Of a stretch of 64,000 bases of DNA, positions 17,295-36,494 are shown piece by piece; position 1 is the first letter of the stretch; every line of letters begins with the position of its first letter. The notes under the pieces are model-generated. The model saw only the letters and a program-made list of their open reading frames with translations. It was not told where the DNA came from and searched no databases. The DNA is from an uncultured Pseudomonadales bacterium (lineage in GTDB: Bacteria > Patescibacteriota > Microgenomatia > UBA1400 > PJMF01), in contig CAZZBW010000002.1 of assembly GCA_964653045.1 (NCBI GenBank), positions 298 through 64,297 of the forward strand. Reading direction: 5' to 3'. Both the position numbers and the translations under genes were made by a program.

Positions 17295-18365
17295 TTATTT
17301 TATTAACCAACGCAAAGTAACCACATAAATTAACCAGCTGATAATTTTTTGCCAAAAGTTAATAATGAGACGGTCAATGATAACAATAGTACTGACAACT
17401 TTATGTGCGAAACTGTCATCCTTATTATCTTCGATCGTATCCAAGTCGGTACTCACACCTAATACCACTGGCTCGCTTAAACCAATTTCTTTGGCACTAC
17501 CAAACTTGAGTTGATTAGATGCTTGCTCAATCGCAATTAGATTTTCTTCTTTGATTAGCTGAGACTGCTGGTCATTATTCTGGGGTACCACCGATTCCGG
17601 CACGATCAGATAACTAGCCGTAGTTAGATCTTTGAGCAAGTTAGTGCCTTCGCCATTATTTTCCAACACTAGCGATGAAGGCAAGAATCTAACTTGGGTT
17701 AATCCAGCCTGCTTTGCTTTAAATACAGCAGTAGCAAACACTCCCCGCTCGGCAAAAAAACCGGGGTTGGGTAAACCCCCACTAATCCGGCCATACCCAA
17801 GCTCATTATCAATTTGCTTCTGAATAAAAATACTGGCAAAAGAATCTTGTGTGACTATGTCAACTAACTCTAACGATCGAGGATCGAACACAAAATCAGA
17901 CTGAATGGCATTAATCGGTTTCTTTATCCCAACCAGCTCGATCGGCATGAGAAAGGTTTCACCAATTGCGTATTGCCCTTCAGATGGAATCACAAAAGTA
18001 ATAGTTTTTTCGGTTAAATTAAACCCAGATCGAGCAAGAATTGTTCCCTCTAGCACCACCATCCCCATAGAAACCATGGAAATGAGTAAGATCAAAAATG
18101 CATTTAAAATACTGGAACGAAAGTTTTTCGGTGCAGAAACTTTTTCATCAGAAACATAACTCCGACAAAAAGGACAGACATCGCCTGTCTTACGTGTTTG
18201 GCACATCAGACAAGGAATTGATCCAGGAGCAAGTAACCACCAAACCGGGTACATTAGCGCCAAAAAGACCCCAAAAAAAGCTAGCAAATGTCCCAAGAAA
18301 AACGAGGCAATCACTAACGCGAACAGGCGAAAAAAGATGGTCAGAATCGAGGCTCGCTGTTGCAT
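17295..18365 (-). CDS. hypothetical membrane protein with zinc-ribbon motif (first gene of the surface-protein operon as read 3' to 5')
   Basis: Two N-terminal TM helices, CLMCQ...CPFC zinc ribbon, a third TM helix, then an extracytoplasmic domain. Confidence 0.45.
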   Translation of the reverse strand: MQQRASILTIFFRLFALVIASFFLGHLLAFFGVFLALMYPVWWLLAPGSIPCLMCQTRKTGDVCPFCRSYVSDEKVSAPKNFRSSILNAFLILLISMVSMGMVVLEGTILARSGFNLTEKTITFVIPSEGQYAIGETFLMPIELVGIKKPINAIQSDFVFDPRSLELVDIVTQDSFASIFIQKQIDNELGYGRISGGLPNPGFFAERGVFATAVFKAKQAGLTQVRFLPSSLVLENNGEGTNLLKDLTTASYLIVPESVVPQNNDQQSQLIKEENLIAIEQASNQLKFGSAKEIGLSEPVVLGVSTDLDTIEDNKDDSFAHKVVSTIVIIDRLIINFWQKIISWLIYVVTLRWLIK

Positions 18366-18391
18366 TTTTAGCTGATACTAAATAATACCAC

Positions 18392-19447
18392 TTATTCCTT
18401 CTCTACCCAATACATTAAAATTGAAAAATCAATAATATCGCAGCGTTGGTCCGCATTCAGATCGCAGGTTGCTAAATTCTGTTTCACTGGATAGTAGGCA
18501 TTCCACCAATGCTCTGATATCCGGTCAAGCATAAATGGATCTAATCTTCCAGATTGATTAAAATCATACTGACGCAAAATTTCGGGGAGCGACTCAACAG
18601 TTGGTGCAACAACTACATTCGGTTGACCAAAATCGAGTTTACCATCGCTGATTACCGTTGGCGCTGGTGTCATGACTGAATCTGTCGTTCCTTCACCTTC
18701 ATCATCGCTGTCGTCACCAGCTCCTGGGGATTGAGTGGGAGTGGGCGTGGGTAAAGGAGTTGGAGTTGGCGACGGGACTTGAAAGAACAGCACGCTGAAA
18801 CTCCCTACATTAATTTCTTGGCTAGCAAACCCATGATAAATGACTGTGGCGACAACTGGGAAAGTTACACCGGGCTGAAGATTAACAGCTGAGATTGATC
18901 CCGACCAATACCCTTGCTCACCAGCGGTGAATGAGAGAAAGTAATCAGCGCCAACCATCAGCTCCACCACACTTCCTGGTGGAGCCCAACCAGAAATTAG
19001 CAGTTGCTCATCGGGTAAAACCTGAGTGGCAGAGAGCTCAGCTGTAGGGGGAAAAACTATGTTCGAGAGGGTAGTCTCGACAGTTGGAGTGAGATAGACT
19101 GAGTACTCGACTGTGTCGGTCATCGATCCAGATGGAAGGTGAGTGGAACTCAACTGAAAAACTTTGTTTTCTGGGGTCTGAGCGGTAAGGGTTTTGGTGA
19201 AAAAACCTTGCTCGTCACTAAGAGCCGTGCCGACGGCCACGCCGTTTTCTTTGATGGTCACTAATGAGTTTGGCGCTGTCCAGCCGGAAAAAGTGACAAC
19301 CGTGTCACCGACGTCAATACTGAGAGTCAGCTCAGTTTGAGCTTTAGCGGAAGATAAACCACCCCACATGCCCACAATTACCAAAAAAATTCCTATCCAA
19401 AATTTCACTCTTAAGTTCAAAAACAGCGGGCAGATGCGCGTGCTCAT
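18392..19447 (-). CDS. secreted protein with Pro/Thr linker and C-terminal dockerin-like tandem Ca-binding repeats
   Basis: Signal peptide; PSPTPTPLPTPTPTQSP linker; DFNQSGRLDPFMLDRI and DLNADQRCDIIDFSILMYW resemble dockerin repeats. Confidence 0.5.
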   Translation of the reverse strand: MSTRICPLFLNLRVKFWIGIFLVIVGMWGGLSSAKAQTELTLSIDVGDTVVTFSGWTAPNSLVTIKENGVAVGTALSDEQGFFTKTLTAQTPENKVFQLSSTHLPSGSMTDTVEYSVYLTPTVETTLSNIVFPPTAELSATQVLPDEQLLISGWAPPGSVVELMVGADYFLSFTAGEQGYWSGSISAVNLQPGVTFPVVATVIYHGFASQEINVGSFSVLFFQVPSPTPTPLPTPTPTQSPGAGDDSDDEGEGTTDSVMTPAPTVISDGKLDFGQPNVVVAPTVESLPEILRQYDFNQSGRLDPFMLDRISEHWWNAYYPVKQNLATCDLNADQRCDIIDFSILMYWVEKE

Positions 19448-19462
19448 GGCAAATAATCTTCC

Positions 19463-20410
19463 TCATTCTGTTGGGTCCAAGCCCCGAAATAATATTTTAA
19501 GAGCCTTGGACAACCTTTTTCTGATTTTCACTAAGATGATCATGACTATCAGGGCTCCCACCGCTATTCCAGCCAGCAACTTATATGGCAGAACGAAAAA
19601 AGTCACAGAAGCGCTGGCCAACTCGGTTTTTTGACCTGCAGCCACAGAAATAGTGGCGACATACCGGCCAAACAGTCTATCTTTATTCCACTGCGTCTCA
19701 ATCCGACGAATCGCTTGAGGCAAAACGTTACGCTGGTCTAGATCAAATTTATCCACTACCCGACCAAACACATCAGTAATGGTAATACTTCCTTTGACCT
19801 TAATATGAACATTGCCGGCATTGCTGACCCTGAGCACAAAATCTACTGGGGCTCGCTCAAAGAGTTCCTTAGTGGTACTAAACTCCTCGATCGCCCACGA
19901 CTCTTTGACCTCGCCTGCAACTCTGAGCAAGATCAGCGCACCTATCTCTTGGACCACTGATGCACCCTGTGCATTTGGTCCAGCTCCGCCAGTTTTGAAC
20001 ACCACTGAAGCAAAGTGCCCACCGGGCTCAGCATTATCTGGAACTGGGATAAAAATCGTGAAGGTTTGATTAGAACGGGGAGGAATAACTGCAGTAACAG
20101 GTGAAACTTGGATCCACTCGGCAAGGGTGTTGGTCAGCTTTTCGCCACTTAGCTCAACGGAACCCTCCTCGCCCCGTGCCACAAATAAGCGCTTATCAAC
20201 ACTTATTTCTAACGGTTTATCACCTGCGTTTTCAACTTTGAGTGTGTTTGTCAAAGTATCACCGCGATTGGCAGATAACTCAAAAGTGGGAGGAGTAATA
20301 ACTAGCCCTGTTTCTTGTGCCAAAACTAGAGAAGCTGAAATGCCAAAGCAAAAAACAAATAGCAAGCAGAATAACGAAAGGACTAAAGTTACTTTCGCAA
20401 GATGTCTCAT
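19463..20410 (-). CDS. cell-surface protein with N-terminal signal and C-terminal TM anchor (DUF916-like architecture)
   Basis: Signal peptide, about 250-aa beta-rich ectodomain (LVITPPTFEL...), C-terminal TM plus basic tail; paralogue of 21551-22495. Confidence 0.5.
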   Translation of the reverse strand: MRHLAKVTLVLSLFCLLFVFCFGISASLVLAQETGLVITPPTFELSANRGDTLTNTLKVENAGDKPLEISVDKRLFVARGEEGSVELSGEKLTNTLAEWIQVSPVTAVIPPRSNQTFTIFIPVPDNAEPGGHFASVVFKTGGAGPNAQGASVVQEIGALILLRVAGEVKESWAIEEFSTTKELFERAPVDFVLRVSNAGNVHIKVKGSITITDVFGRVVDKFDLDQRNVLPQAIRRIETQWNKDRLFGRYVATISVAAGQKTELASASVTFFVLPYKLLAGIAVGALIVMIILVKIRKRLSKALKILFRGLDPTE

Positions 20411-20455
20411 CGGGATTTGATTATAACTGCAAGCTTGACCAGTTGCAATTCAGGC

Positions 20456-21517
20456 TTAATAAGTTGGTGTTGCGGTATAAATTACCGTAGTGGTGTAATT
20501 ACCAGCTGGAGTACTTGAAGACACACCCACCTGATAGCCAACACGAGTGGTTTCTGTACCACTGGTTGGGGTAGCACGAGTGGCCACTACTTCATTGCTA
20601 GCAGTAAAAGCTGCCCACTTGTTTGTCGCAAATTGAGTCAAATCAGCATCATTGGTGGTGTAACCAAAGTCTTCGTCATCGACACTCTGCGGAAAGATAG
20701 TTGGAACAGTGTGGGTCCCTGAGTGATCATCAATATCTGCAGTACTATATGTTGGCTTGCCTGTATATCGAACATACACTGAATAGCCTGTCGTAGAGTT
20801 GGTGCCTACATTCAAATCATGCGCTGCGATTGCATTGGTTGCGGCAGTAACCGTACCAAGTGGAATAGTGTTAGCATCAGTCACTGTGGCTACTGTGGTG
20901 GTAGCACCATTAACAGACTGAGAACCAGCCACGCCCGTGATCGTGAAAGACAGAGATGGATCGACGGTGAGAGATACAACTTGACCGTCGGTGTAAATGA
21001 ACATGACCGTGGCATAATCGACTTCGTTGCCTGCTGTACAGCTTGCATCTGTGTAGGTATTGAAAATTGCGTAATATCCAGTGTCAGCAACTGAGCCATT
21101 AGCTACCCCATCCAAAACAACCGTCCTTCCGCTCGCACCACCAGGGGTAGCGCCAGTAACGTCAGTATACTGGATTTTTCCACCACTGACAGTCTTCGAC
21201 CAACCATTCAAACCAGTGATATAGGTACTACTGGCATTGACGGCGGCGCTGGCCAAACTCAGGCCTGATGGCGCCGATCCTCCAGCAGCAGTGGTGGCAA
21301 ACTCAAGTTCAACACACTTGACCGTTGTGGTGGTATCGACATTACTAAAGGTCGCAGTATAAGTCACAGTTGTCGCGGAGGGGCGAGAATCATCAACGCT
21401 TAATGATCCAGCGGTCAATGCATTAGCACTTGCGAGAGGGACTAAGCCAAACAACGATTGGCCGAGGAAGAAACTGACCATTAAAAGTAGGGCGGGTAAG
21501 GACTTTCTATTTGTCAT
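20456..21517 (-). CDS. secreted Thr/Gly-rich surface protein with conserved C-terminal domain ending TTTVIYTATPTY (WxL-like)
   Basis: Signal peptide; the C-terminal 200 aa are homologous to the C-terminus of the 1520-aa protein (..YSTTVIYAVTPQY). Confidence 0.5.
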   Translation of the reverse strand: MTNRKSLPALLLMVSFFLGQSLFGLVPLASANALTAGSLSVDDSRPSATTVTYTATFSNVDTTTTVKCVELEFATTAAGGSAPSGLSLASAAVNASSTYITGLNGWSKTVSGGKIQYTDVTGATPGGASGRTVVLDGVANGSVADTGYYAIFNTYTDASCTAGNEVDYATVMFIYTDGQVVSLTVDPSLSFTITGVAGSQSVNGATTTVATVTDANTIPLGTVTAATNAIAAHDLNVGTNSTTGYSVYVRYTGKPTYSTADIDDHSGTHTVPTIFPQSVDDEDFGYTTNDADLTQFATNKWAAFTASNEVVATRATPTSGTETTRVGYQVGVSSSTPAGNYTTTVIYTATPTY

Positions 21518-21550
21518 AATCGGATCCTTTAATAAGTACTCTATCTGGTT

Positions 21551-22495
21551 CTAAGAATTTTTTACTAACACGCGCAAAGCAGATAAAACTCTGCGTCTAT
21601 TCAGAGAAGCAATGATCAAAATGGCTGTCAATAGTGAAAATCCGATCGCGGATAGAAGTTGGGCGAGAGAGATGTTGAACACATAGAGGGTTAAAGTACT
21701 GGCCGGGGGCGCCGCAGACCGGAGGTCTGCGGCGCTTAACCAAGTGTTCACTTGATACACTCCCAAGCGTGGTGCCTCAGGCCAACTGAGTTTCATCTGC
21801 TTGGTATTGAGTGGCAACACAATTCGTGGCTCTGCTACCAAATAAGTTTTCTGGCCAAATGGCCAAGATTTAATCACCAGCTCAGGTTGGAGCAGTTGGT
21901 GAACATTACCATAATTTTTGAGAGTCAGGTTAAAGTTAATCTCCCCTGTTTCTGCCAGAATTTCTTTTTGTATATCTGTCAGCAGGACTTTCTCAATCCG
22001 CTCACCAGCTACATCGATAAAAATCAACGCTCCTACTCTCGGCACAACGGCACTACCTTGGAACTGCGAAAGTTCGCTTAACGCAGCAACTTCAAAAAAC
22101 ACGGTGGCATAATGGCCGCCCGGACCGAGATCGTCCGGCGCGGCCACTTCAATTTGTACTTGAGTCGTCTTCCCAACTTCAATAATGAACGATTCGGGCT
22201 CAACTCTGACCAAGTGTGACGCATCATACCGAATCCGCGCTTCAGGAGTGTCACTCAGTTCATCTGAGTTGAGCCCCATCACAAAACTCTTGACTGGCAA
22301 GGGTTGGGCAGTTTTGTTAAACACGGTTAATTCCCGCGTTTGGGTATCTCCTGCCTTGAGATCAAACTCCAAGATTGCCGGACTGATTGTTAACGAGTTA
22401 AGTGAGTCTGCATAAGCAACCCCAGATTCCAACCACCACAAACAGAGAGCAACAAAAAATCCGCTGATCAATTTAATACTGGGGTGTAACTGCAT
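21551..22495 (-). CDS. cell-surface protein with signal peptide and C-terminal TM anchor (DUF916-like), paralogue of 19463-20410
   Basis: The ORF-track N-terminal 125 aa overlap the upstream gene in another frame, so the start is moved to the ATG at 22495 (MQLHPSIKLISGFFVALCLWW signal peptide); C-terminal TM LLSAIGFSLLTAILIIASL. Confidence 0.5.
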   Translation of the reverse strand: MQLHPSIKLISGFFVALCLWWLESGVAYADSLNSLTISPAILEFDLKAGDTQTRELTVFNKTAQPLPVKSFVMGLNSDELSDTPEARIRYDASHLVRVEPESFIIEVGKTTQVQIEVAAPDDLGPGGHYATVFFEVAALSELSQFQGSAVVPRVGALIFIDVAGERIEKVLLTDIQKEILAETGEINFNLTLKNYGNVHQLLQPELVIKSWPFGQKTYLVAEPRIVLPLNTKQMKLSWPEAPRLGVYQVNTWLSAADLRSAAPPASTLTLYVFNISLAQLLSAIGFSLLTAILIIASLNRRRVLSALRVLVKNS

Positions 22496-25400
22496 AAATA
22501 ACGGTGGTTGAGTACTGCGTGGCGGCTTGACCGCTGTCGACCCGGACCTTGAGATCAACGTTGAACTGTTCATTAGTAATGGGCGTACCGCTGACTGCCG
22601 CAGTGTGATCAGCCATAATATCACCGGGAGATTCTTGATCGAATGGAGCGTAACAAGGCGGCGAACCTCCACCTGGGCATGGTGTGTCATTGAAAAGATC
22701 AACTCCTTGGATCGAGGTATCACTCGAGTGGTAACCAAAACCCAGATCTCCGGTACCCCACTCTGCTGGTGTAGCATAGCTACCTGCAGAAAAATTGGCA
22801 ATTTCGTTGGTCGGGTACAAAATTGATCTGAGTAGATCAGTGGTATAGGCACGGATGACGTAACCGGCATAAGCGTTGGTGGACGTCGTCAACGTCACTT
22901 GCTCAGTCGCAGTGTATGAATTACCTGGACCGAGATTATCGAAAGTCACATTCTCAGGAGAAACAGCAAAACTCAGAGTGGGCGCGACCAACTGGCCGTC
23001 CGAAGATGCCCCTGTACTGGTGTTACCAGCCAGATCGGTCGCGCGGACGGTGAAGTAGTACACCACTGAAGTTTGCAAGCTCTGACCACTGACAGTCACC
23101 GAAGTATCGGTACCCACATTAGTCCAGCTCACCAACTCAGTGCCACCAACTGTTGTCCCAATAGCATATTCATAGTAGTCTATTTCAGAAACAGCTTCAT
23201 TGAAACCAACAAAATTGGCGGACAAACTGGACAAAGAACCATCATTTAACATTTTATCTACTCCAGTTTCCGTCCCATCGTAAACCGTCCCATCATCGGG
23301 AGCCGTTGTATCGATTCCAAAATCACGCTCTGCCTCGGTATTGTTACCAAAACTCACCCAATCGGAGTAAGCACCAAAACTATCTTTGGTTCGAGCCTGC
23401 CAATGATACTCCATTTCATCAGGCAACGAGCTGAGAGTTACAGTAGCTTCAACTGCAGAACCAGAATAGGCCACACCAGTACCACAACCCGTCTCGACAC
23501 CAGTAAAGCTTATGTTCAACGGCTGCACCTCAACACACAGCTGGAGAGTATCCGGGTTATCAGGATCCGACACATTGGCCGTAAACACGACCGAGGTTTC
23601 ATCGGTCCAGTCACCCACGCTCAATATTGTTTGGTCAGTCTTTTCTTGAGATAAATTCGTCGGATCATTTGGCGCGGTATTCATTGAGCCAAATGAAACC
23701 AACCAATCCTGGAGTTGAGGCGAGCCAGTACCATAGGTCAGGGTCGCCTTCAGATAGATCGTGGCATAAGTGGTAGTAGAAAGACCGCTTAGATCAACTC
23801 CAGCGCTGCCATCAAAGCCAGTGGAATTACCACTCAGAGCACCATCAGGAATAATGGTCGGTGTTCCAGAGTTATCATAAAAAACTTGATAAATAATGGT
23901 GCCATTAGTTTGGTCATCCCCCACCATAAAATACCCCCAAGTGGTTTCACTGGGCTGAATCTGGGCGGCAACGATCGGCGTGGACAGCACCATGTCGGTA
24001 CCAGAAGTGACTTGAACATAGTTACTGGTGTAGTTCACTTCTGCGTTGCTGCCCAACGTGTCTGATTCGAACTGCTCGCCGTGCGTCTCAAACCAAGCAT
24101 TACCTTTGCTTAGTGAAGTATCGATGGTGAGCGACCGGCGATCCGACCAGGCACTCCACGTCTCGGTACCTGCAATATCCATCGCTCTGACTTGATAAAA
24201 ATAGGTTGTGCCGTTGGTCAAGGCATTACCCGCTTGCACCGTGTAGCTGATGGTGTCTCCTGCGGTGAAAGGATCTAGATCGGATTCGTTGCCAACATTA
24301 AGAAAGCCTAGATCTGTTTCAGAAACATCATCAATTTCAGGAGAGGTGAAACTAGGATCAGAGCTTATTTGAATTTGGTAAGTAAGATTATTGCTCTCAG
24401 TATCAGTTGATTTAAATCGAATGATTGGCGTGGTATCAGTAATTTTTGCTTTATCGTAATAGAGATTTCCTTCGATAGTTGGTTTGGTGGCTGGCGTCCC
24501 TACTGAAGTTTTTTTGGCAATCACCACGTCGCGGTAGGGAGGGAGATGCGGCTGAGTATCAAATGACAGCGTCACGTCATGAGTGTGAGTGCTTGTTGCC
24601 TGGTTTCCATAGGGCTTTTGATTCGTCCCACCACTACTTGCACTTGGTCCACCTGATGTAACAGTGGCATTGGTGTGATTATGACTGGCAGTCCCATTTA
24701 CTGAAGCATAACTACTGGCGCCCCGCAAAAACCGCTGATAAAACGCCCCACCGCTATCTGACAACGATGTCCAATTAGTACCTATTGTTCCTTCCACCAT
24801 CACAATCTCTCCACCGGTAAAATATTTATCAGCCCCACTAGTATTTTTATAAAGTAAAACGTCTATCCGATCAGGCAAGTGTGTGGCTGAAGCGTTGGTC
24901 CCAGAGACAGTGTGCGTGTGTGTATCTATAGCAAAACTCCCGGCTGCACCAGTAGCACCACCAAAATTACTGGACGCTGTCAATGATCCAGAATAATTAT
25001 GAGTGTGATTATCAGCTCCTCCAGTGCCAGTGGTATTACCCTCGCCTCGGAGAAAGGCAAGGTCTTGAGTCGAGTAACGGGTCCAACCAGTTACTGGTGA
25101 AGGTGTTGCGTCAAACATCAAAATTAAACCATCGGGAATACTGGTTGGCACACCTGTGGTATCGTACTTAATTACTTTTAGATTGCGATAAGTTGGCAGG
25201 TTGGTGCCCACTCCAGTAGAAGCACCACTCCAACCGTGAGTATGAGTGGACAATGTCTGGATCAAAGAATTATTGCGATAAGGTAGTGTTGAATTAGCCC
25301 CTGTATGACTGACAAAAGTCATACCGTGACTATGTTCAATAAGACCACCAGTGCCGCCAGAAGTGGCGGCACCACGAGGAAAGACTTGGTAATACGGTTC

Positions 25401-27035
25401 AGTTGATAAACACGATACACAAGACCAACCGGTGGGTGGGGTTGCACCATCCCAAAAGGCTAAGACGTTGTAGACAGCATCGGAAGCCACCTGCCACTGG
25501 CGCAACTCTTGAAAAATAATCGTTTCTTGATTAGTCACGGTTCCTGCACTGCTGGTGGCGGCAGAATCTGATGCAACTTCGGCATCTGGTAACGAATCAG
25601 CGTTGACGTCAGCGGATTCCGTCGAGTCTAGCACTGGCTCAAGAATCACATTACTATCTGCTTCAATCTGGTTGGAAGGAGAGGACTCGGCCGCTGCGGT
25701 TGGTGATTCGTCAGTGAAAATATCGAGATCCAACGCTCCCTCAATTACTTGCGTCGACTCCACCAACCGCAGTGGCCCCAGCAGATAAAACTGCGGGGAT
25801 ATTTCCGGAGCTTGATATTGATACCCAATTAGCAATATTTCATCTGGGTCCAGCACTTCATCCCAAATGATATTTTGCACACCGTTCTCTACGTCAATTT
25901 CAATCCGATCGTAATCGCGAAACCCGGCACCGACAAATGGTGAAATCTCAAACTCAAGTGGCACCGGCTCGATGATCGAGCCGGTGAACTCTTGTCTGGC
26001 CACCACCTCCACCATCACCGAGTAAGTGTTGGGTGGGTAAATCCGGGTGGCCGACGAGTGCTCAATCTCAAATGGGACCTCATCCCAAACCTCAATGTAA
26101 TCGCTAACAGCGTAACTACCGTTGACAGTGACTGCGCTCAGTTCTAGCTCGTATCTGCCCACTCCTCCCAACTGGTAGGCAGACTGGTAATCCGGGACAT
26201 CGGTCACTGCACTTTCTTTGCACTCAGGATTGACAGTAATTAGTCCATTAGTTGTCGACAACTCATCAACTTTTTGCTGATCGGGATGATAAATTTTTAA
26301 ACTTAGATCTGCGTCACACACCATCGCGCCATTTTCATCCAACACGGCAAAAGCCAATTGCGCTTCTTCTTCTGGTAAATAGATTGATCGATTGGCATTC
26401 AGCGCTAAAACCCCCCAGGTGAAATCTTGGGCGAAAACTTCCCGATCTCCTTCGTAAACCTCAAGGTGAAACTTGCCCGGCCGGACACTGCCCACGGGCG
26501 TGACCAACAGCTGCCCATCTTCGAAGCTAGTTTGAATCGTCACTGGCTCCTCAGCATAATCTGTCACCACAATTTCCAACTCTTCTGGCTGATAATCTAG
26601 CAGCTCCAACTCGATTCCCTCGTTGATCTGGAAATCCTTGTCCTTCATTGTCAGCTTACGCATCCGCAATAACTCTTTGATAATGTTCCAAACTTGCGTC
26701 GGCTTGCTTTTTTCGACCTTTTGATCAGCATCAGTTTCGTCTGGAGCGATCGTCGGAGTAAGCGTTGGTGAAATTGATGGTGTAATTGTGGGGGAAATAG
26801 TTGGCGCCAAATCAGTTGGCTGAGGAACAAGTGCATCGGTTGGCTCGGCTTCAGCCGAGCCAACCGATGGTTCTAGCGTGATAGTAGGTAATTCTGGAGC
26901 ACTATGGATTGGCTGAATATTCGGAATAACAGATTCACTCACCTGTGCTTCTGCCTCGGCAACCATTCGGCCAACTCCCAACGAAAAACCAACCAACACA
27001 AACAAAGCCACGATAGTTGGCTTAAACTTAATCAT
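22473..27035 (-). CDS. giant secreted surface adhesin (1520 aa) with Ig/FN3-like domains, phage tail-fibre-like HxH / LPxYR repeats and WxL-like C-terminal domain
   Basis: Signal peptide, Pro-rich linker, acidic linker, and four to five repeats containing HxH (THTH, NHTH, SHNH) followed by LPxYR / FLRG motifs (aa about 565-840); C-terminus shared with 20456-21517. Confidence 0.6.
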   Translation of the reverse strand: MIKFKPTIVALFVLVGFSLGVGRMVAEAEAQVSESVIPNIQPIHSAPELPTITLEPSVGSAEAEPTDALVPQPTDLAPTISPTITPSISPTLTPTIAPDETDADQKVEKSKPTQVWNIIKELLRMRKLTMKDKDFQINEGIELELLDYQPEELEIVVTDYAEEPVTIQTSFEDGQLLVTPVGSVRPGKFHLEVYEGDREVFAQDFTWGVLALNANRSIYLPEEEAQLAFAVLDENGAMVCDADLSLKIYHPDQQKVDELSTTNGLITVNPECKESAVTDVPDYQSAYQLGGVGRYELELSAVTVNGSYAVSDYIEVWDEVPFEIEHSSATRIYPPNTYSVMVEVVARQEFTGSIIEPVPLEFEISPFVGAGFRDYDRIEIDVENGVQNIIWDEVLDPDEILLIGYQYQAPEISPQFYLLGPLRLVESTQVIEGALDLDIFTDESPTAAAESSPSNQIEADSNVILEPVLDSTESADVNADSLPDAEVASDSAATSSAGTVTNQETIIFQELRQWQVASDAVYNVLAFWDGATPPTGWSCVSCLSTEPYYQVFPRGAATSGGTGGLIEHSHGMTFVSHTGANSTLPYRNNSLIQTLSTHTHGWSGASTGVGTNLPTYRNLKVIKYDTTGVPTSIPDGLILMFDATPSPVTGWTRYSTQDLAFLRGEGNTTGTGGADNHTHNYSGSLTASSNFGGATGAAGSFAIDTHTHTVSGTNASATHLPDRIDVLLYKNTSGADKYFTGGEIVMVEGTIGTNWTSLSDSGGAFYQRFLRGASSYASVNGTASHNHTNATVTSGGPSASSGGTNQKPYGNQATSTHTHDVTLSFDTQPHLPPYRDVVIAKKTSVGTPATKPTIEGNLYYDKAKITDTTPIIRFKSTDTESNNLTYQIQISSDPSFTSPEIDDVSETDLGFLNVGNESDLDPFTAGDTISYTVQAGNALTNGTTYFYQVRAMDIAGTETWSAWSDRRSLTIDTSLSKGNAWFETHGEQFESDTLGSNAEVNYTSNYVQVTSGTDMVLSTPIVAAQIQPSETTWGYFMVGDDQTNGTIIYQVFYDNSGTPTIIPDGALSGNSTGFDGSAGVDLSGLSTTTYATIYLKATLTYGTGSPQLQDWLVSFGSMNTAPNDPTNLSQEKTDQTILSVGDWTDETSVVFTANVSDPDNPDTLQLCVEVQPLNISFTGVETGCGTGVAYSGSAVEATVTLSSLPDEMEYHWQARTKDSFGAYSDWVSFGNNTEAERDFGIDTTAPDDGTVYDGTETGVDKMLNDGSLSSLSANFVGFNEAVSEIDYYEYAIGTTVGGTELVSWTNVGTDTSVTVSGQSLQTSVVYYFTVRATDLAGNTSTGASSDGQLVAPTLSFAVSPENVTFDNLGPGNSYTATEQVTLTTSTNAYAGYVIRAYTTDLLRSILYPTNEIANFSAGSYATPAEWGTGDLGFGYHSSDTSIQGVDLFNDTPCPGGGSPPCYAPFDQESPGDIMADHTAAVSGTPITNEQFNVDLKVRVDSGQAATQYSTTVIYAVTPQY

Positions 27036-27102: not shown

Positions 27103-27924
27103 TTACTTTTTTGACTTAAATAATCTATCGTATTCACTTACTTTAGCGGTGTAATCTCCCCAATTTTCCGGGGTTAATTCTGACAAACTTACTATCATTG
27201 GTACTTCAGACACGGGACAAGGAATTTGCTGAGCAATTTCACTTGCTCTAGTATATGGAATTGGTTTACCCAAATGGATTTTAAGATGAAAAAATTTAGA
27301 TTTATTCGGTTCAGTTTGCCCTGGCGGCCAAAACTGATACGCCCCAACAAGACATATCGGAATGAAGTATAAATTGCTTGAATATTCTTCACAAATCGCA
27401 TCAATTGCATCTGTTACTAATGCGGGTGCCTCACTCGCACCAACTTCGCGGGATCTAGTTCCTTGTGGAAACACACCTAGGATTGCGCCTTGTTTAAAAG
27501 CACGCATAATAGGAAGCCAAGCAAATGGGTTTTGCTTACGATCAACTTCTGAACCATCTTGAACTTGAATTACTGGACGTAGATCCAAATTTAATAGTTT
27601 TAGAGCAATTGCAGCATCTCCCAACTGACCCATCCGACCATCAAAAAATTTCCCAGAAATTGGACCAACCAGTGTAGTATTCAGTTTTTTTGCCAACCTA
27701 TAAAACAAGGCAATATCGGCCACACTCCAGTGAGGAGGTAAAATTACTAACTTGCTACCTGATTCTTGCAGTTCCTTGATTTCTTTCCAATGCTCTTTTC
27801 CCCTGATCGGAATTAAGTCAAAAACTGTCGCTAAAGTTTTGGCAATCGTTTCTGGAGTGGGGTGAGTCAAACCCTCCGATACAGAGTTGAACTTTGTGTG
27901 CAAAACTTCAGAAATTCTGCTCAT
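27103..27924 (-). CDS. lysophospholipid/glycerol-3-phosphate acyltransferase family protein (PlsC-like)
   Basis: HWSVAD (Hx4D) acyltransferase motif; about 273 aa. Confidence 0.55.
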   Translation of the reverse strand: MSRISEVLHTKFNSVSEGLTHPTPETIAKTLATVFDLIPIRGKEHWKEIKELQESGSKLVILPPHWSVADIALFYRLAKKLNTTLVGPISGKFFDGRMGQLGDAAIALKLLNLDLRPVIQVQDGSEVDRKQNPFAWLPIMRAFKQGAILGVFPQGTRSREVGASEAPALVTDAIDAICEEYSSNLYFIPICLVGAYQFWPPGQTEPNKSKFFHLKIHLGKPIPYTRASEIAQQIPCPVSEVPMIVSLSELTPENWGDYTAKVSEYDRLFKSKK

Positions 27925-27935
27925 GTTTTCCTTAT

Positions 27936-28943
27936 TTAAAAATAAGAGGTGTATAAGCGTCTTATCAAACCAATAATTGTGCCAATCATCACAACTGCAT
28001 CAGCAACTAACTGTAAGATCGGTAAAAAAGGCCAGCCTAGTGGCGCGTAACGATAGTTCTTGGCTATTGACCAAAGCAAGTAAATAATTGCAAGAACAAT
28101 TAAGACTAATAAATAAGAGAAGTTATTAGTGAATAAAAAAATCAAGAATAAGGTAAGGGCGAAGAGATAGCGGCCGAAAATCAGCAAGACTTTCGGCCGC
28201 CACAGTCCCGCATACGCGTCGCCGCGGGCGAAGCGGTAAATGGTGCGAATAAACTCAGACCAAGAGCGATGAGGAATCCAACCAATGCGCGCCCGCGGGG
28301 TAAATACAATTTTTTCTTTCAAGTTGGCGCGCAACATCTTGCGCGCCAACGCATAATCTTCATTATCACTCAAGCTCTGATCAAATCCACCAAGCTTGGT
28401 TAAAACAGATTTTTTAATTAGCATTGACCTGGTGGTTGGCAACATAAATCCAGCTTTAATTACCCGCGGCATCGCCAGTGCATAACAGCTAAACGCTTGC
28501 TCTAACCCGGTTTTTGTCAGTGGGTAAAAATAACCACTGACAATCTCAGTTCGATTGTCATGCTGAGCGCAGTCGAAGCATAGACCCCCATCTACAGCTT
28601 TAACTAATTCTTCCAACCAGTCTTGATCGGGCACACATCCAGCGTCAGTAATCGCTATCCACGGAGATTTGGCTAACTGAACTGCCCGATTGCGCCCCAC
28701 ACTCCGGTTGCCGCGTTTTTGCTCAACAACTAAAGAAATTTTTTTGCTTTTTCGTGCTAATTGTTGCAGCTTATCCCATGTTCCATCTGTTGACCCACCG
28801 TCAACAACAATCACCTCACGCGGTAAATACGATTGGGCCGTCAGCGCTTTGATCAGCGAATCAACCGACCCAACTTCGTTCAACACCGTCACGATCACGC
28901 TGACGGCCAACTGTTTTTTCTGAATATTTTTTGTTTTTTTCAA
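27936..28943 (-). CDS. family 2 glycosyltransferase with C-terminal transmembrane region
   Basis: VSVIVTVLNE...VIVVDGGSTDGT...ITDAGC GT2 motifs followed by three to four TM helices. Confidence 0.7.
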   Translation of the reverse strand: MKKTKNIQKKQLAVSVIVTVLNEVGSVDSLIKALTAQSYLPREVIVVDGGSTDGTWDKLQQLARKSKKISLVVEQKRGNRSVGRNRAVQLAKSPWIAITDAGCVPDQDWLEELVKAVDGGLCFDCAQHDNRTEIVSGYFYPLTKTGLEQAFSCYALAMPRVIKAGFMLPTTRSMLIKKSVLTKLGGFDQSLSDNEDYALARKMLRANLKEKIVFTPRARIGWIPHRSWSEFIRTIYRFARGDAYAGLWRPKVLLIFGRYLFALTLFLIFLFTNNFSYLLVLIVLAIIYLLWSIAKNYRYAPLGWPFLPILQLVADAVVMIGTIIGLIRRLYTSYF

Positions 28944-29968
28944 TTATTTACTCCCCACAATTTCAGGTACTTGTCAGCTAACTTTTTCCAAGTTTGTTTT
29001 TTCGCCCAGTCGTACGCTTGTTTAATCATGTTATTTTTTTGAGCTTCGCTCAGTTTCTTCAATTTCTCCGCTAGCTCCCGTCCACTTTCAGCGATTACCA
29101 TCCACTTGCTGGCCGGATGCATAGTCAAGTAATCTTTTTTGATTTGGTTATTATAAACAGCCAAAACCAAGCGCTTGGATTGCATTGCCTCAAGGATTGC
29201 CAAATATCTAGACACAAAAGCGTACTCATGTGAGTTATATAATTGATCTACCCGAGTTTGCCAAAGATAAAATTTCACATCTAATTTGCGCCGCTGCACA
29301 AATTTTTTCGCTCGGTTTAGAAATGAGCCTTCTCCATAAACATCTAAGTTTATTTTTGGCTGGATACGTTGAAGCGCTTCCAAATACATCATGATCCCTG
29401 TATCTTCTTCCAGCCGTCCCAAGAAAGCGGCAGAGTTTTTTTTCGCAGTAGTTTTATCAGAAACACCTTGTTGATCGGCGGCACCATAAATGATTAGGTC
29501 TGGATTTTGGCCATACCACTTTTTGATAAACTCGCCCACAGCAATGGTTCTGTATGAAAGTTTCTCCACCAGCCGTCGGTGCCACACTGCTTGCCAACGA
29601 GGCAAACCAGGACCCTCATAACCATGGAAAGTGGTAAAAACTTTTTTGTTAAAATAAAAAATTCTCTGCGGTAAGTACCACCAAAACACATCGTGAATAT
29701 GGACAATATCTGCGTCGACAAACAGTTGCCGGTGTTGCCAAATCCACTGCCAAGTTTGAAGCTTGTGGTTAAAGTGCTGGAAAGGTAAACGAAACACATT
29801 GACACCGGCAATAATCTCATTGGATTTCAGTCCGGGCTGATTTGAAGTGGTTAAAACAGTGATGCTAAAGCCACGGTGAATTAATTCTTGGGCTAGCTGG
29901 GCGGTGTGCTTCTCCACACCGCCCACCGCCGGCGCATATCTTGGTACCAAAAACAATATTTTTTTCAT
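28940..29968 (-). CDS. family 4 (GT-B) glycosyltransferase
   Basis: N-terminal KILFLVPRYAPAVGGVEKH signature; GT-B fold length. Confidence 0.7.
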   Translation of the reverse strand: MKKILFLVPRYAPAVGGVEKHTAQLAQELIHRGFSITVLTTSNQPGLKSNEIIAGVNVFRLPFQHFNHKLQTWQWIWQHRQLFVDADIVHIHDVFWWYLPQRIFYFNKKVFTTFHGYEGPGLPRWQAVWHRRLVEKLSYRTIAVGEFIKKWYGQNPDLIIYGAADQQGVSDKTTAKKNSAAFLGRLEEDTGIMMYLEALQRIQPKINLDVYGEGSFLNRAKKFVQRRKLDVKFYLWQTRVDQLYNSHEYAFVSRYLAILEAMQSKRLVLAVYNNQIKKDYLTMHPASKWMVIAESGRELAEKLKKLSEAQKNNMIKQAYDWAKKQTWKKLADKYLKLWGVNN

Positions 29969-30708
29969 TTTTTTTGCGCCAGAATAATAATGTTGGAATA
30001 ACCAAAAATCTTGCCCAATAATTCGTCAGCAACACAGACCAACTTCGAAAATCTCGGACGAATAAACTTCAAAAAAACTTTTAATCTCGACAAAAACATT
30101 ACAGATCTGAGCGGACCGTCAACAATTTTGTAATTCGATATCATTAATTTGTTGTCCTCAATTAACCTCGTAATTGAGCCGACTGAGTACCGCCGCAGAT
30201 GTCCCACTTCTTGATCAAATTTGTCAAAAAATCCGAGTTTGTAAAACACCGATGAGTTGAGCGGAGTCGACAGTATTAAATAACCATGCTTATTTAATCT
30301 AGCTGAAATATCTCGAATGAATGCAGCGTCATCGGCAATGTGTTCAATCACTTCTGAGCAAACAATCAGATCAAACTTACCTTTGATATCCCTAATACTT
30401 CCAGTTAAAAACTTGACGTTAATAATTTTTAAATTTTTGGCGTTTGCCTTTGCTAACCGAATGGCTTTGGGAGAAATATCAACCCCCACGACGATTGAGC
30501 ACTGTTGAGAAAGATACAGAGCAATATTGCCAATTCCACAACCAACATCGAGTGCCTTGGTATTTTTTGCTCCCCAAATTAAAGGTAAATGTAAGAATCC
30601 CAGAATATAACGATAGGTAAAGTCGCGAGGATCAATCAACTTTTTGATCAAACCACTTTTGTGATGAAAACCATTGTAAAAGCTAGTAATTGAGAAAGGT
30701 TTACTCAT
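29965..30708 (-). CDS. class I SAM-dependent methyltransferase
   Basis: LDVGCGIGNIALYL motif I plus IVCSEVIEH; start moved to the internal ATG at 30708 (MSKPFS), which abuts the divergent ATG at 30707. Confidence 0.7.
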   Translation of the reverse strand: MSKPFSITSFYNGFHHKSGLIKKLIDPRDFTYRYILGFLHLPLIWGAKNTKALDVGCGIGNIALYLSQQCSIVVGVDISPKAIRLAKANAKNLKIINVKFLTGSIRDIKGKFDLIVCSEVIEHIADDAAFIRDISARLNKHGYLILSTPLNSSVFYKLGFFDKFDQEVGHLRRYSVGSITRLIEDNKLMISNYKIVDGPLRSVMFLSRLKVFLKFIRPRFSKLVCVADELLGKIFGYSNIIILAQKK

Positions 30709-36062: not shown

Positions 36063-36494
36063 CCTTACCCTTTGGGGATGTAACGCTTTGACGTGACAAG
36101 CTCTTTAACAGTCGCAAGTCGTCTTTAGTCAAAAGACGTAAAAAAGGACTAAAAACATAACTGCAGATACAATCAGCAGCAAAGCTCGCAACTTCGTAAC
36201 TGAAGTTGCCGAAGGTGTCGACTCTTTTGTCGATTCATTCAGAGCTCCACAAATGCTTTACGCATAAGTGGCATTCATCCGAGGCGTTTCACTGGCGCGC
36301 GCGGGTGGGTGACAAATCAGTCAGTGTGACAATCTGATCGTCTGTGCCGATCAGAAATAAGCAAATTGTACAGAGGGAGTGTGCTCCGGTTTGTTCATCC
36401 ACCCGCTTACTCCGCCAACTCAAAGATGAACTACACTTGTAGAAGCTGTTTTTGACTATTCACAGACACGGGCTCATTACCCGTCATCTCCACC
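36063..36494. other. GC-enriched structured non-coding region between convergent genes (candidate ncRNA or decayed gene)
   Basis: No ORF of 60 aa or more; local GC is clearly above its flanks; several hairpins (acgtctt..aagacgt) and a long-range pairing (gcgggtgggtga / tcatccacccgc about 90 nt apart). Confidence 0.25.

What the first reader, a model, noticed from the sequence alone, without database searches (positions are those of the whole stretch)
24518..25343. Phage tail-fibre-like HxH and LPxYR/FLRG repeats inside the giant adhesin
Residues about 565-840 of the 1520-aa protein carry four to five repeats. Each has a His-x-His motif (EHSHG, THTHG, NHTHN, THTHT, SHNHT, THTHD) followed by LPxYR (LPYRN, LPTYRN, LPDRID, LPPYRD) and FLRG(E/A). 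HxH repeats coordinate metal in the T4 gp12/gp37 fibre tips. LPDLRGR-type motifs define phage tail-collar (MdpB-like) domains. A host-encoded adhesin appears to have recruited a phage receptor-binding fold. This is plausible for attachment to a host cell.
Basis: inference. Interest (0 to 1): 0.65.

Follow-up and report, generated by a model that had tools for sequence, protein, structure and literature searches.

The report
Single-chain triple phage-fibre-tip module
A 1520-residue secreted protein of an ultra-small (Woesebacteria-like) bacterium contains three tandem copies of the metal-binding tip domain that phage short tail fibres normally build from three separate chains; the same module occurs in thousands of unannotated, often giant, surface proteins and in phage tail proteins.

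Summary
The six His-x-His motifs are real (6 observed, 0.33 expected, 0 of 20,000 shuffles). The repeat anatomy was misread. There are three ~108-aa repeats (aa 520-631, 631-735, 739-847), not four or five. Each runs beta-strand, P-x-G-W, F-x-R-G, TGG-HxH, variable loop, HxH, LPxY strand.

Profile-profile comparison puts each repeat end to end on the C-terminal collar plus receptor-binding region of T4 gp12 (91.7%, P 8e-7). The gp12 metal HxH aligns with the first HxH. The repeat lacks the helical hairpin that carries LPDLRG, so Pfam Collar does not match. FLRG is the collar remnant; LPxYR is not.

AlphaFold folds the triple module as one confident body (pLDDT 90.5, pTM 0.85). Its only strong fold matches are two phage phiAsp2 tail proteins that carry the same triplet. 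Family proteins have 3 or 6 repeats, never 4 or 5. Phage fibres also exist with one terminal copy.

Best reading: a single-chain pseudo-trimer of a phage fibre tip, held by two six-His metal sites, with hypervariable loops for ligand binding. The family has at least 3,825 clusters, no Pfam model, and is found mainly in Patescibacteria among the genomes scanned. Metal binding, threefold geometry and the ligand are inferred.

The parts
22473..27035 (-). Gene for the 1520-aa secreted or surface protein that carries the module
   Evidence: ORF list and translation. The same gene is called on an independent Logan contig.
26943..27035 (-). N-terminal signal peptide or membrane anchor (aa 1-31, MIKFKPTIVALFVLVGFSLGVGRMVAEAEAQ)
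   Evidence: Read directly from the translation: basic n-region, hydrophobic core, AEA-type site. No predictor was run. Homologues in genomes have similar N-termini.
26721..26942 (-). Pro/Thr/Ser-rich low-complexity linker (aa 32-105)
   Evidence: Translation. A 12-bp, 1.9-copy tandem repeat lies at 26766-26788.
24495..25481 (-). Whole triple module (aa 519-847): three gp12-tip-like repeats, predicted as one compact all-beta body
   Evidence: AF2 on alignment A1: pLDDT 90.5, pTM 0.85. Homologues cover 97-99% of it. 3,825 clusters in the representative search.
25152..25481 (-). Repeat A (aa 519-628): VLAFWDG...P-T-G-W...FPRG...GGLIEHSHG...THTHG...LPTYRNLKVIKYD
   Evidence: Repeat HMM built without window sequences: aa 520-631, E 3e-29.
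24816..25151 (-). Repeat B (aa 629-740): IPDGLILMFD...TGW...FLRG...TGGADNHTHN...DTHTHT...LPDRIDVLLYK
   Evidence: Repeat HMM: aa 631-735, E 2.6e-27. AF2 of this repeat alone is weaker (pLDDT 78.8, pTM 0.53).
24495..24815 (-). Repeat C (aa 741-847): GEIVMVEG...TNW...FLRG...NGTASHNHT...STHTHD...LPPYRDVVIAKK
   Evidence: Repeat HMM: aa 739-847, E 2.2e-28.
25326..25334 (-). HxH#1 of repeat A (H568-S-H570); proposed ligand pair of metal site 1
   Evidence: Both His conserved in at least 90% of 30 sequences. HxH#1 aligns with gp12 H445/H447.
24999..25007 (-). HxH#1 of repeat B (H677-T-H679); metal site 1
   Evidence: One His invariant, the other at least 90% conserved.
24675..24683 (-). HxH#1 of repeat C (H785-N-H787); metal site 1
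   Evidence: One His invariant, the other at least 90% conserved.
25236..25244 (-). HxH#2 of repeat A (H598-T-H600); proposed metal site 2
   Evidence: Both His at least 90% conserved.
24912..24920 (-). HxH#2 of repeat B (H706-T-H708); metal site 2
   Evidence: One His invariant, the other at least 90% conserved.
24579..24587 (-). HxH#2 of repeat C (H817-T-H819); metal site 2
   Evidence: Both His invariant.
25245..25325 (-). Hypervariable loop of repeat A between the two HxH (aa 571-597); candidate ligand-contact surface
   Evidence: Mean column entropy 2.56 bits, against about 1.5 in the core. Lowest pLDDT block of the repeat.
24921..24998 (-). Hypervariable loop of repeat B (aa 680-705)
   Evidence: Entropy 2.62 bits. 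pLDDT 69-75.
24588..24674 (-). Hypervariable loop of repeat C (aa 788-816)
   Evidence: Entropy 2.60 bits. pLDDT 69-83.
25371..25382 (-). FPRG (aa 552-555), the repeat A counterpart of FLRG; remnant of the collar '...RGrFlRG' strand
   Evidence: hhalign aligns F-x-R-G with gp12 'LFVRG' and family 'FlRG'.
25044..25055 (-). FLRG of repeat B (aa 661-664)
24720..24731 (-). FLRG of repeat C (aa 769-772)
25182..25199 (-). LPTYRN (aa 613-618), start of the closing strand of repeat A; equivalent to gp12 'RPWNISLNYIIK'
   Evidence: hhalign. The Pro column is invariant in the 30-sequence family alignment.
24861..24878 (-). LPDRID (aa 720-725), closing strand of repeat B
24528..24545 (-). LPPYRD (aa 831-836), closing strand of repeat C
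   Evidence: In the family alignment the first Pro is at least 90% conserved and the Tyr is invariant.
24135..24455 (-). Ig/FN3-like domain directly after the module (aa 861-967)
   Evidence: Pfam Ig_Rha78A_N, E 9.7e-7, 29.4 bits against a cut-off of 27.4. Weaker fn3, Big_13 and Ig_J_second hits cover the same stretch.

Best explanation
Residues about 519-847 form one domain built from three tandem, anciently diverged copies of the C-terminal tip of a phage short tail fibre. That tip is the T4 gp12 type: a collar strand, an HxH metal site and a closing strand. Here it has been stripped to about 108 residues by loss of the collar's helical hairpin.

In phage fibres this region works only as a homotrimer. 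Three chains wrap around a threefold axis, and each gives one HxH to an octahedral six-His metal site. In this protein the three copies sit on one chain and are proposed to pack around a pseudo-threefold axis. The three HxH#1 would form one buried Fe/Zn site and the three HxH#2 a second. The metals would act as structural staples.

The three hypervariable 26-29-residue loops between the HxH pairs would form the exposed surface that binds a ligand, most likely a cell-surface glycan or protein of another cell. The rest of the protein (signal peptide, Pro/Thr-rich linker, Ig/FN3-like domains) presents this module outside the cell. A single-chain tip lets a monomeric surface protein carry a phage-type binding head anywhere along its length, and lets the three loops diverge independently.

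Shown: the repeats, the conservation pattern, homology to phage fibre tips, and the multiple-of-three copy-number rule.
Inferred: the pseudo-threefold packing, metal binding, and the adhesin role and ligand.
For: 1. Three repeats are detected by an HMM built from other proteins (E about 1e-27 to 1e-29). All 12 His of the six HxH are invariant or at least 90% conserved in 30 homologues.

2. Profile-profile alignment of the repeat against a gp12 C-terminal/Collar family covers the whole repeat at 91.7%, P 7.8e-7. It matches IPxGxIxxF-PxGW, FxRG, TGG, HxH (gp12 H445/H447) and the closing strand. Controls with reversed or column-shuffled alignments give at most 0.5%.

3. HxH from three chains forming an octahedral Fe site is established for pyocin fibres, T4 gp37 and P2 gpV. 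T4 gp12 has the same motif with Zn (PMC6116203).

4. AF2 gives the triple module pLDDT 90.5 and pTM 0.85. One repeat alone gives 78.8 and 0.53. This fits repeats that depend on each other.

5. Among 182 family proteins, 148 have 3 repeats, 22 have 6, and none has 4, 5 or 7 or more. The few with 1-2 are mainly fragments or single-copy forms.

6. Single-copy forms sit at the extreme C-terminus. One of them, P0040, is a classical tail fibre in a phage with an SU10-like capsid gene. The triple form occurs in phage tail proteins: Pas28/Pas29 of phiAsp2 (Foldseek probability 1.0; HMM; Pas29 is annotated as a possible receptor-recognising protein) and P0017, which lies among tail-fibre genes.

7. Loops between the HxH pairs are hypervariable (2.6 bits against 1.5 bits in the core) in all three repeats.

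8. Cellular homologues are 625 to more than 3,400-aa ORFs with N-terminal signal or TM segments. One fragment has the module upstream of an RHS toxin core (P0036). This fits a targeting role.
Against: - No coordinates were available, so the convergence of the His residues on an axis and the threefold packing were not seen directly.
- Foldseek against solved structures found nothing significant for the module (best E 0.03, TM below 0.1) or for one repeat (best fibre, 9nxk, E 1.0).
- Pfam Collar and S_tail_recep_bd do not match.
- hhalign against gp12 alone gives only 29%. Block shuffles that keep local motifs reach up to 82%, so part of the signal comes from short motifs.
- Which HxH corresponds to the gp12 site differs between the two alignments.
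- The module sits in the middle of this protein, and directly after the signal peptide in others. That is not obviously a distal tip.
- No ligand, expression or localisation data exist.
- The repeat count comes from proteins found with a three-repeat profile, which favours proteins with at least 3 copies.
Confidence: 0.6

Rival explanations
1. Same fold and metal sites, but the module is a rigid, metal-stapled structural joint in the stalk of the surface protein. Ligand binding would be done by other domains.
For: In T4 gp37 and pyocin fibres the HxH iron sites lie in the shaft or needle, not at the contact surface (PMC6116203). The module is internal here (aa 519-847 of 1520) and at very different positions in homologues: aa 30-56 in some, beyond aa 1800 in others. 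Some proteins carry two modules.
Against: Three hypervariable loops sit on a conserved scaffold, which is the usual pattern of a specificity determinant. Single-copy versions form the extreme C-terminal tip of a phage fibre. The homologous gp12 and Pvc13 regions are described as host-binding domains (PMC12546770). The module is fused upstream of an RHS toxin core in P0036.
Confidence: 0.2
2. The conserved His pairs form a catalytic metal centre, and the module is an enzyme such as a hydrolase or oxidase acting on a surface polymer.
For: Twelve invariant or near-invariant His residues could in principle build an active site. Glycosyltransferase and methyltransferase genes lie next to the gene.
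Against: No enzyme family matches in Pfam, in PDB sequence searches or in Foldseek. All homology points to fibre tips, where six-His sites are coordinatively saturated and structural (PMC6116203). No conserved Asp/Glu/Cys accompanies the His residues in the family consensus.
Confidence: 0.04
3. The gene is really a phage tail-fibre gene in a prophage or misassembled phage fragment, not a cellular protein.
For: The closest fold matches are phage tail proteins. Some family members lie in phage contigs.
Against: The protein has a signal peptide and a Pro/Thr-rich linker. It is flanked by glycosyltransferases, a methyltransferase and small cohesin- or Big_6-like proteins, within a chromosome carrying FtsK, RNase J, Suf, Ddl, tmRNA and tRNAs. 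PHROGs finds no phage family in it. No capsid, terminase or tail genes were seen among the window ORFs that were scanned. GC content at the gene (0.47-0.49) is only slightly above the window's range. Forty-nine genome loci carry the module in large signal-peptide proteins.
Confidence: 0.03
4. The motifs are a chance or low-complexity feature of a Gly/Ser/Thr-rich disordered region.
For: The region is rich in G, S, T and N. BLAST against phage records found nothing.
Against: 0 of 20,000 shuffles reach six HxH. There are 3,825 homologous clusters. AF2 gives pLDDT 90.5 with defined beta strands.
Confidence: 0.01

Closest known systems
T4 gp12 short tail fibre C-terminal region (collar domain PF07484 plus receptor-binding domain PF14928; PDB 1OCY/1H6W, cited from my own knowledge of Thomassen et al. 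2003)
   Same: Co-linear motifs across the whole unit: IPxGxIxxW/F, PxxW, FxRG, TGG, an HxH metal motif, and a closing strand ending ...IK. hhalign gives 91.7% against the family. It is a host-binding tip with a six-His site on the threefold axis (PMC6116203).
   Different: gp12 has one copy per chain and must trimerise; here three copies sit on one chain. The unit is about 108 aa instead of about 190. It lacks the ~31-aa hairpin with LPDMRG and most of gp12's distal insertions. It has two HxH per unit instead of one. Neither Pfam model matches.
Pas28 and Pas29 of Actinoplanes phage phiAsp2 (AY576796)
   Same: Same triple-repeat module with HxH pairs. Foldseek E 7e-14 and 2e-13, probability 1.0, TM 0.55-0.58. 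The repeat HMM finds three domains in each. Pas29 is annotated as a possible receptor-recognising protein with HXHY motifs.
   Different: They are phage tail proteins without signal peptides. Their repeats carry extra HxH copies, and their third repeats keep a short 'CDG..G.PDM' collar motif that the window protein has lost. About 20% identity.
Pvc13 tail fibre of the Photorhabdus PVC contractile injection system (PDB 9QGO)
   Same: Best PDB sequence hit of the single-repeat profile (E 8e-4), aligning LPKGMIVMFSG..PTGW..CDG..PDLRSRF with the repeat's N-terminal half. Its C-terminal region is described as homologous to host-binding domains of phage short tail fibres (PMC12546770).
   Different: It is a homotrimeric fibre on a phage-tail-like particle, with a single copy per chain. 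The similarity is borderline and covers only half the repeat.
HxH iron sites of T4 gp37, R-type pyocin fibres and P2 gpV spikes
   Same: HxH motifs contributed threefold to octahedral metal sites (PMC6116203). gp37 (2xgf) is a weak sequence hit (E 0.037).
   Different: Those sites are stacked along a homotrimeric beta-helical shaft. There is no collar-type strand or closing strand, and the similarity may reflect the motif only.
Mosaic adhesive trimer (MAT) fibres of Bdellovibrio bacteriovorus
   Same: Cell-encoded, surface-displayed, phage-fibre-like proteins used by a bacterium that lives on other bacteria. One member binds prey surface glycans (PMC10769870). This is the closest precedent for the proposed role.
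   Different: MAT proteins are true homotrimers with varied tips. No sequence relationship was tested or found here, and they have no single-chain triplication.
Cellular 'microcystin-dependent protein' (MdpB-like) tail-collar proteins
   Same: Secreted single-copy collar-plus-HxH proteins in bacteria. Several gp12 C-terminal homologues found here carry that name and PF07484. P0199 bridges the two families (E 3e-9).
   Different: They keep the full Collar domain with LPDLRG, are single copy, and are small (about 200-330 aa).

Membership tests
Pfam PF07484 Phage tail collar domain | Match to the family HMM at or above its gathering score | tested here: not met
   No hit at E up to 1 for the window protein, 29 homologues, Pas28/29 or four further family members. 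T4 gp12 as positive control scores 51.9 bits.
Pfam PF07484 Phage tail collar domain | N-terminal strand plus P-x-G-W turn (IPxGxIxxf....PxGW) | tested here: met
   Conserved in all three repeats and aligned to the collar family by hhalign.
Pfam PF07484 Phage tail collar domain | Helical hairpin ending in the (L)PD(L/M)RG motif | tested here: not met
hhalign places a ~31-column gap in the repeat opposite 'vsrt.y..Lfa.iGt.yG...tFniPD.RG'. Only the following FxRG is kept.
T4 gp12-type short-tail-fibre receptor-binding tip (collar plus PF14928, trimeric metal-binding fold) | Profile-level homology across collar, HxH and closing strand | tested here: met
   hhalign 91.7%, P 7.8e-7, repeat positions 1-111 against gp12 338-527. 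Controls. Against the gp12 sequence alone only 29%.
T4 gp12-type short-tail-fibre receptor-binding tip (collar plus PF14928, trimeric metal-binding fold) | Match to PF14928 (S_tail_recep_bd) | tested here: not met
   No hit. gp12 control E 3.6e-65.
T4 gp12-type short-tail-fibre receptor-binding tip (collar plus PF14928, trimeric metal-binding fold) | HxH motif that supplies two of six His ligands to a metal on the threefold axis | tested here: inconclusive
   The motif is present, invariant and aligned with gp12 H445/H447. The geometry and the metal could not be examined, because no coordinates are returned by the tools.
T4 gp12-type short-tail-fibre receptor-binding tip (collar plus PF14928, trimeric metal-binding fold) | Homotrimer of identical chains | tested here: not met
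   Three diverged copies (24-31% identity) lie on one chain. Family copy numbers are 3 or 6. Proposed to replace trimerisation.
T4 gp12-type short-tail-fibre receptor-binding tip (collar plus PF14928, trimeric metal-binding fold) | Fold similarity to the solved structure | tested here: not met
T4 gp37-type HxH needle (PDB 2XGF) | Sequence or fold similarity beyond the HxH motif | tested here: inconclusive
   The single-repeat profile hits 2xgf_A at E 0.037, driven by HxH-rich stretches. No Foldseek match.
Triple HxH module family (unnamed; phiAsp2 Pas28/Pas29-like) | Three tandem ~105-130-aa repeats, each with two or more conserved HxH, folding as one unit | tested here: met
   Foldseek probability 1.0 to Pas28/29. 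3,825 clusters at E up to 1e-3.

The most novel reading that the evidence does not exclude
The single-chain pseudo-trimeric fibre tip is a widespread, unnamed receptor-binding domain that ultra-small episymbionts (Patescibacteria, and at least one DPANN archaeon) place in their giant surface proteins to recognise host cells. It would be exchanged with phages that infect the same hosts. Saccharibacteria live on Actinobacteria (my own knowledge), and the closest phage copies are in a phage of the actinobacterium Actinoplanes. If so, symbiont host range could be read from, or re-engineered through, three independently evolving loops on one chain.
Probability: 0.15. Interest if true: 0.85.

Novelty: new variant of a known kind. 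Interest (0 to 1): 0.62.

Why it matters
Phage fibre tips are textbook obligate homotrimers. A natural version in which three diverged copies on one chain rebuild the tip would show how a symmetric oligomer becomes a single-chain domain. It frees the three binding loops to evolve separately, and it can be inserted anywhere in a monomeric protein.

The family is large: 3,825 clusters at 50% identity, 643 of them below 1e-30. It has no Pfam model. It sits in proteins of up to 7,246 aa, mostly from Patescibacteria among the 49 genome loci recovered. How those organisms recognise their hosts is an open question, and their giant proteins are largely unannotated.

The result gives a concrete, expressible 330-residue fragment to test for metal content, fold and ligand. 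It also gives a profile for annotating thousands of unannotated proteins (no Pfam domain over the module in any of the 40-odd checked; the few with a source name are mostly 'hypothetical protein').

Tried and rejected
- Pfam, PHROGs and PDB sequence searches with the whole protein or the whole module gave nothing for the module.
- tblastn of the module against 50,697 phage records gave no match.
- Foldseek against the PDB with the whole module gave only noise (tetravirus capsids such as Nudaurelia capensis omega virus, TM below 0.1). With a single repeat it was also noise.
- The genome scan with the single module found nothing, and the 30-sequence alignment was too diverse to seed a scan. The 8-sequence alignment worked for genomes but found nothing in IMG/VR, probably because only two peptide patterns were used.
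- Literature searches for phiAsp2, 'tail collar' with HxH, gp12 with zinc and collar, and 'pseudo-trimer' with tail fibre found no description of this module.
- PDB sequence searches of the N-terminal (aa 106-514) and C-terminal (aa 851-1520) parts found nothing.
- Rejected: recent tandem duplication or assembly artefact (no DNA repeat); prophage origin (context); equating LPxYR with LPDLRG.
- P0025 and P0026, which looked like one- or two-repeat proteins, read as frameshifted fragments of triple modules.
Full report
**Where it is.** The finding (window 24518-25343) lies inside one ORF, 22473-27035 on the minus strand, 1520 aa. The window is a cellular chromosome. It carries FtsK, RNase J, SufB/SufS, a Ddl-type ligase, four tRNAs and a tmRNA. 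Its SufB falls in a 90%-identity cluster with a 'Candidatus Woesebacteria' MAG protein, so the organism is probably a Woesebacteria-like member of the Patescibacteria. The neighbours of the gene are an acyltransferase-like protein, GT2 and GT4 glycosyltransferases and a methyltransferase upstream. Downstream on the same strand are five small proteins of about 315-356 aa, two of which have weak cohesin and Big_6 hits. The scanned ORFs of the window gave no match to a phage family.

**The observation.**
- Six HxH motifs are present at aa 568, 598, 677, 706, 785 and 817. They hold 12 of the protein's 23 His.
- Composition-preserving shuffles give 0.33 HxH on average, and none of 20,000 reaches six.
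- The LPxYR-like and FLRG strings exist.
An alignment of the region with itself and an HMM built only from other proteins show three repeats: aa 520-631, 631-735 and 739-847 (E 3e-29, 3e-27, 2e-28).
- Each repeat has the order: beta-strand (i-x-m-F-D), P-x-G-W, F-x-R-G, T-G-G-x-x-HxH, a loop of about 26-29 residues, HxH, about 10 residues, L-P-x-Y-x-x-V-x-x-x-K (consensus).
- The repeats are only 24-31% identical and the DNA has no tandem repeat. The triplication is old.

**Relatives.**
- A search with aa 520-850 found 42 proteins, most covering 97-99% of the three-repeat query. None has a Pfam domain over it.
- In the alignment of 30 sequences, all 12 His are invariant or at least 90% conserved.
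- A full HMMER scan of 1.84 billion cluster representatives found 3,825 proteins at E up to 1e-3, 1,929 at up to 1e-10 and 643 at up to 1e-30. Many are giant (up to 7,246 aa) and some contain two modules.
- A scan of one genome per GTDB species recovered 49 loci. Most are Patescibacteria (about 18 Saccharibacteria, plus Paceibacteria/Parcubacteria, Woesebacteria and others). There are a few Chloroflexota, one Elusimicrobia, and two Geobacter genomes, one of them the isolate Geobacter sp. AOG1. This scan used two peptide patterns from the closest relatives, so it is biased towards them.
- One family member is a 5,808-aa DUF2341 protein of a Woesearchaeota archaeon.
- In the genome loci the module sits in ORFs of 625 to more than 3,400 aa with N-terminal signal or TM segments, at positions from aa 30 to beyond aa 1,800.

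**Fold.**
- AlphaFold2 on the 30-sequence alignment gives an all-beta model with mean pLDDT 90.5 and pTM 0.85 for the 336-residue module. The only weak blocks are in the three loops between the HxH pairs.
- Repeat B alone, with 55 stacked repeats as its alignment, gives pLDDT 78.8 and pTM 0.53.
- Foldseek against predicted viral structures gives two strong hits: Pas28 and Pas29 of Actinoplanes phage phiAsp2 (E 7e-14 and 2e-13, probability 1.0, TM 0.55-0.58). Next come an Aeromonas phage tail fibre (probability 0.96) and a 'phage tail collar domain containing protein' (probability 0.94).
- In the phiAsp2 record, Pas28 and Pas29 follow the putative major tail protein. Pas29 is annotated 'possible receptor recognizing protein; contains HXHY motifs; similar to phage TuIa tail fiber'.
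- Both proteins contain the same three tandem repeats. The repeat HMM confirms this at sequence level: Pas29 2e-23 and Pas28 1e-18, three domains each.

**Link to gp12 and the collar domain.**
- T4 gp12 (positive control: Collar at aa 344-400, S_tail_recep_bd at aa 433-525) shows the same order of motifs from aa 340 to its C-terminus: IPVGAIMMW, P-x-x-x-W, LFVRG, TGG, H445-K-H447, and ...RPWNISLNYIIKVKE.
- I collected ten gp12 C-terminal homologues, all carrying PF07484, and compared their alignment with the profile of 89 repeats. hhalign gives 91.7% probability, P 7.8e-7, over repeat positions 1-111.
- Controls: the reversed target gives 0.4%, and 30 column shuffles give at most 0.5%. Thirty shuffles of 10-column blocks, which keep local motifs, give at most 82% with score 36.5, against 45.2 for the real alignment. 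Against the single gp12 sequence the probability is only 29%.
- The alignment shows what is missing. The ~31-residue helical hairpin that ends in the LPDLRG motif, about half of the Pfam Collar model, is absent. This explains why PF07484 never matches. The FxRG of the repeats corresponds to the strand right after that motif (RG-r-F-l-R-G).
- One collar protein, P0199 (PF07484 plus Gp10_C), is hit directly by the repeat HMM (E 3e-9 in a 13-sequence set) and bridges the two families.
- The single-repeat profile searched against all PDB sequences returns phage or phage-like structural proteins as its three best hits: Pvc13 of the Photorhabdus PVC (9qgo, E 8e-4), 7z47 (deposited as 'putative structural protein', 0.023) and T4 gp37 (2xgf, 0.037). 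The Pvc13 paper says its C-terminal region is homologous to host-binding domains of phage short tail fibres (PMC12546770).

**Why three.**
- In fibres and spikes, an HxH from each of three identical chains builds an octahedral six-His iron site. gp12 has the same motif with zinc (PMC6116203).
- Here the three copies are on one chain.
- Counting repeats with the repeat HMM in 182 family proteins gives 148 with three, 22 with six, and none with four, five or more than six.
- The 12 proteins with one or two repeats are mostly short fragments or frameshifted (P0025, P0026). The remainder include single-copy forms (P0038, P0040, P0042) in which the repeat is the extreme C-terminus of the protein.
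- P0040 is a typical tail fibre on a phage contig that encodes an SU10-type capsid protein.
- P0017, a triple-module protein, lies among tail-fibre genes of another phage contig and hits a 'tail protein' PHROG.
- Both the single-copy form (which must trimerise) and the fused triple form therefore exist in phages, and the triple form also occurs in cellular proteins.
- Together with the high pTM of the triplet, this is the basis for reading the module as a single-chain pseudo-trimer with two six-His sites. I could not inspect coordinates, so this step is inference.

**Function.**
- Column entropy is about 1.5 bits in the collar-like core and the closing strand. It is about 2.6 bits in the loop between the two HxH, and the pattern is the same in all three repeats. 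A conserved scaffold with variable loops is the pattern of receptor-binding tips.
- The signal peptide, the Pro/Thr-rich linker and the Ig/FN3-like domain after the module (Ig_Rha78A_N, E 1e-6) fit a surface-displayed protein.
- One family fragment places the module upstream of an RHS toxin core (P0036).
- In a locus on an unassigned metagenome contig (its closest relatives include a Dehalococcoidales protein), a triple-module protein sits between a camelysin/TasA-like protein and a signal peptidase.
- I therefore take ligand binding on another cell or surface as the most likely role. A purely structural 'metal staple' role is the main rival, because the module is internal in this protein and its position varies among homologues.
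- The closest functional precedent in cells is the mosaic adhesive trimer fibres of Bdellovibrio (PMC10769870).

**Verdict.** The motifs are real and highly non-random. What is there is a minimised, triplicated, single-chain relative of the gp12-type fibre tip. It belongs to a large family without a Pfam model, shared between phage tail proteins and large secreted proteins of mostly ultra-small bacteria. I found no description of it in the searchable literature, which is weak evidence of novelty. I rate it a new variant of a known kind.

Noticed in passing
window 17295-22417 (-): Five consecutive ORFs of about 315-356 aa lie directly downstream of the 1520-aa gene on the same strand. Two have weak Pfam hits (Cohesin, 1.6e-6, at 17295-18365; Big_6, 1.8e-6, at 18392-19447) and three have none. 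They may be co-expressed surface proteins. The listed ORF 21551-22870 overlaps the end of the big gene; an independent gene call gives 314 aa for it.
   Followed up: partly
window 27103-30822 (-): An acyltransferase-like gene, GT2 and GT4 glycosyltransferases and a SAM methyltransferase lie directly upstream of the adhesin gene. This is a glycan-synthesis cluster that could modify the cell surface or the Pro/Thr-rich linker of the protein.
   Followed up: no
window 7566-9998 (+): An 810-aa protein with two ATP-grasp halves. The C-terminal half is D-Ala-D-Ala-ligase-like (E 9e-56, below the curated cut-off). The N-terminal half resembles carbamoyl-phosphate-synthase-like ATP-grasp proteins. This is an unusual fusion.
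   Followed up: no
window 36074-36495 (+): A full-length tmRNA (Rfam RF00023, 91 bits) that ARAGORN did not report.
   Followed up: no
window 30707-32473 (+): A 588-aa protein with a Peptidase_C39-like domain (3e-6), divergent from the adhesin cluster. Its listed ORF overlaps the start of the methyltransferase ORF by about 115 bases.
   Followed up: no
L003 6330-10037 (ENA contig k141_396212) and L004: A 484-aa triple-module protein (P0007) sits between a Peptidase_M73 (camelysin/TasA-like) gene and a Peptidase_S26 signal peptidase. Several homologues have TasA-type N-termini (...FTDxETSN...). This suggests secretion through a SipW-like pathway in Chloroflexota-type genomes.
   Followed up: partly
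P0036 (426 aa, JGI fragment): One full repeat and the end of another lie upstream of an RHS-repeat-associated core (PF25023) and a C-terminal variable region. The module may serve as a targeting head of a polymorphic toxin.
   Followed up: no
L009 and L011 (same 1.03-Mb Patescibacteria contig JBAZBY010000001.1); L025 and L049 (same contig QZJE01000017.1): Two module-bearing giant ORFs per genome, or two modules in one 5,472-aa protein (P0069). Paralogous expansion would fit a specificity determinant.
   Followed up: no
L002 19272-25990 (phiAsp2 pas28, pas29): Two adjacent phage genes each carry the triple module. Their third repeats retain a short 'W..CDG..G.PDM' motif, intermediate between the full Collar domain and the hairpin-less repeats of the window protein.
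   Followed up: partly
L051 (Geobacter sp. AOG1, NZ_BLIZ01000001.1, 329478-342446): A cultured isolate encodes a 1,564-aa protein with the module directly after its signal peptide (aa 44). It would be a tractable organism for experiments.
   Followed up: no
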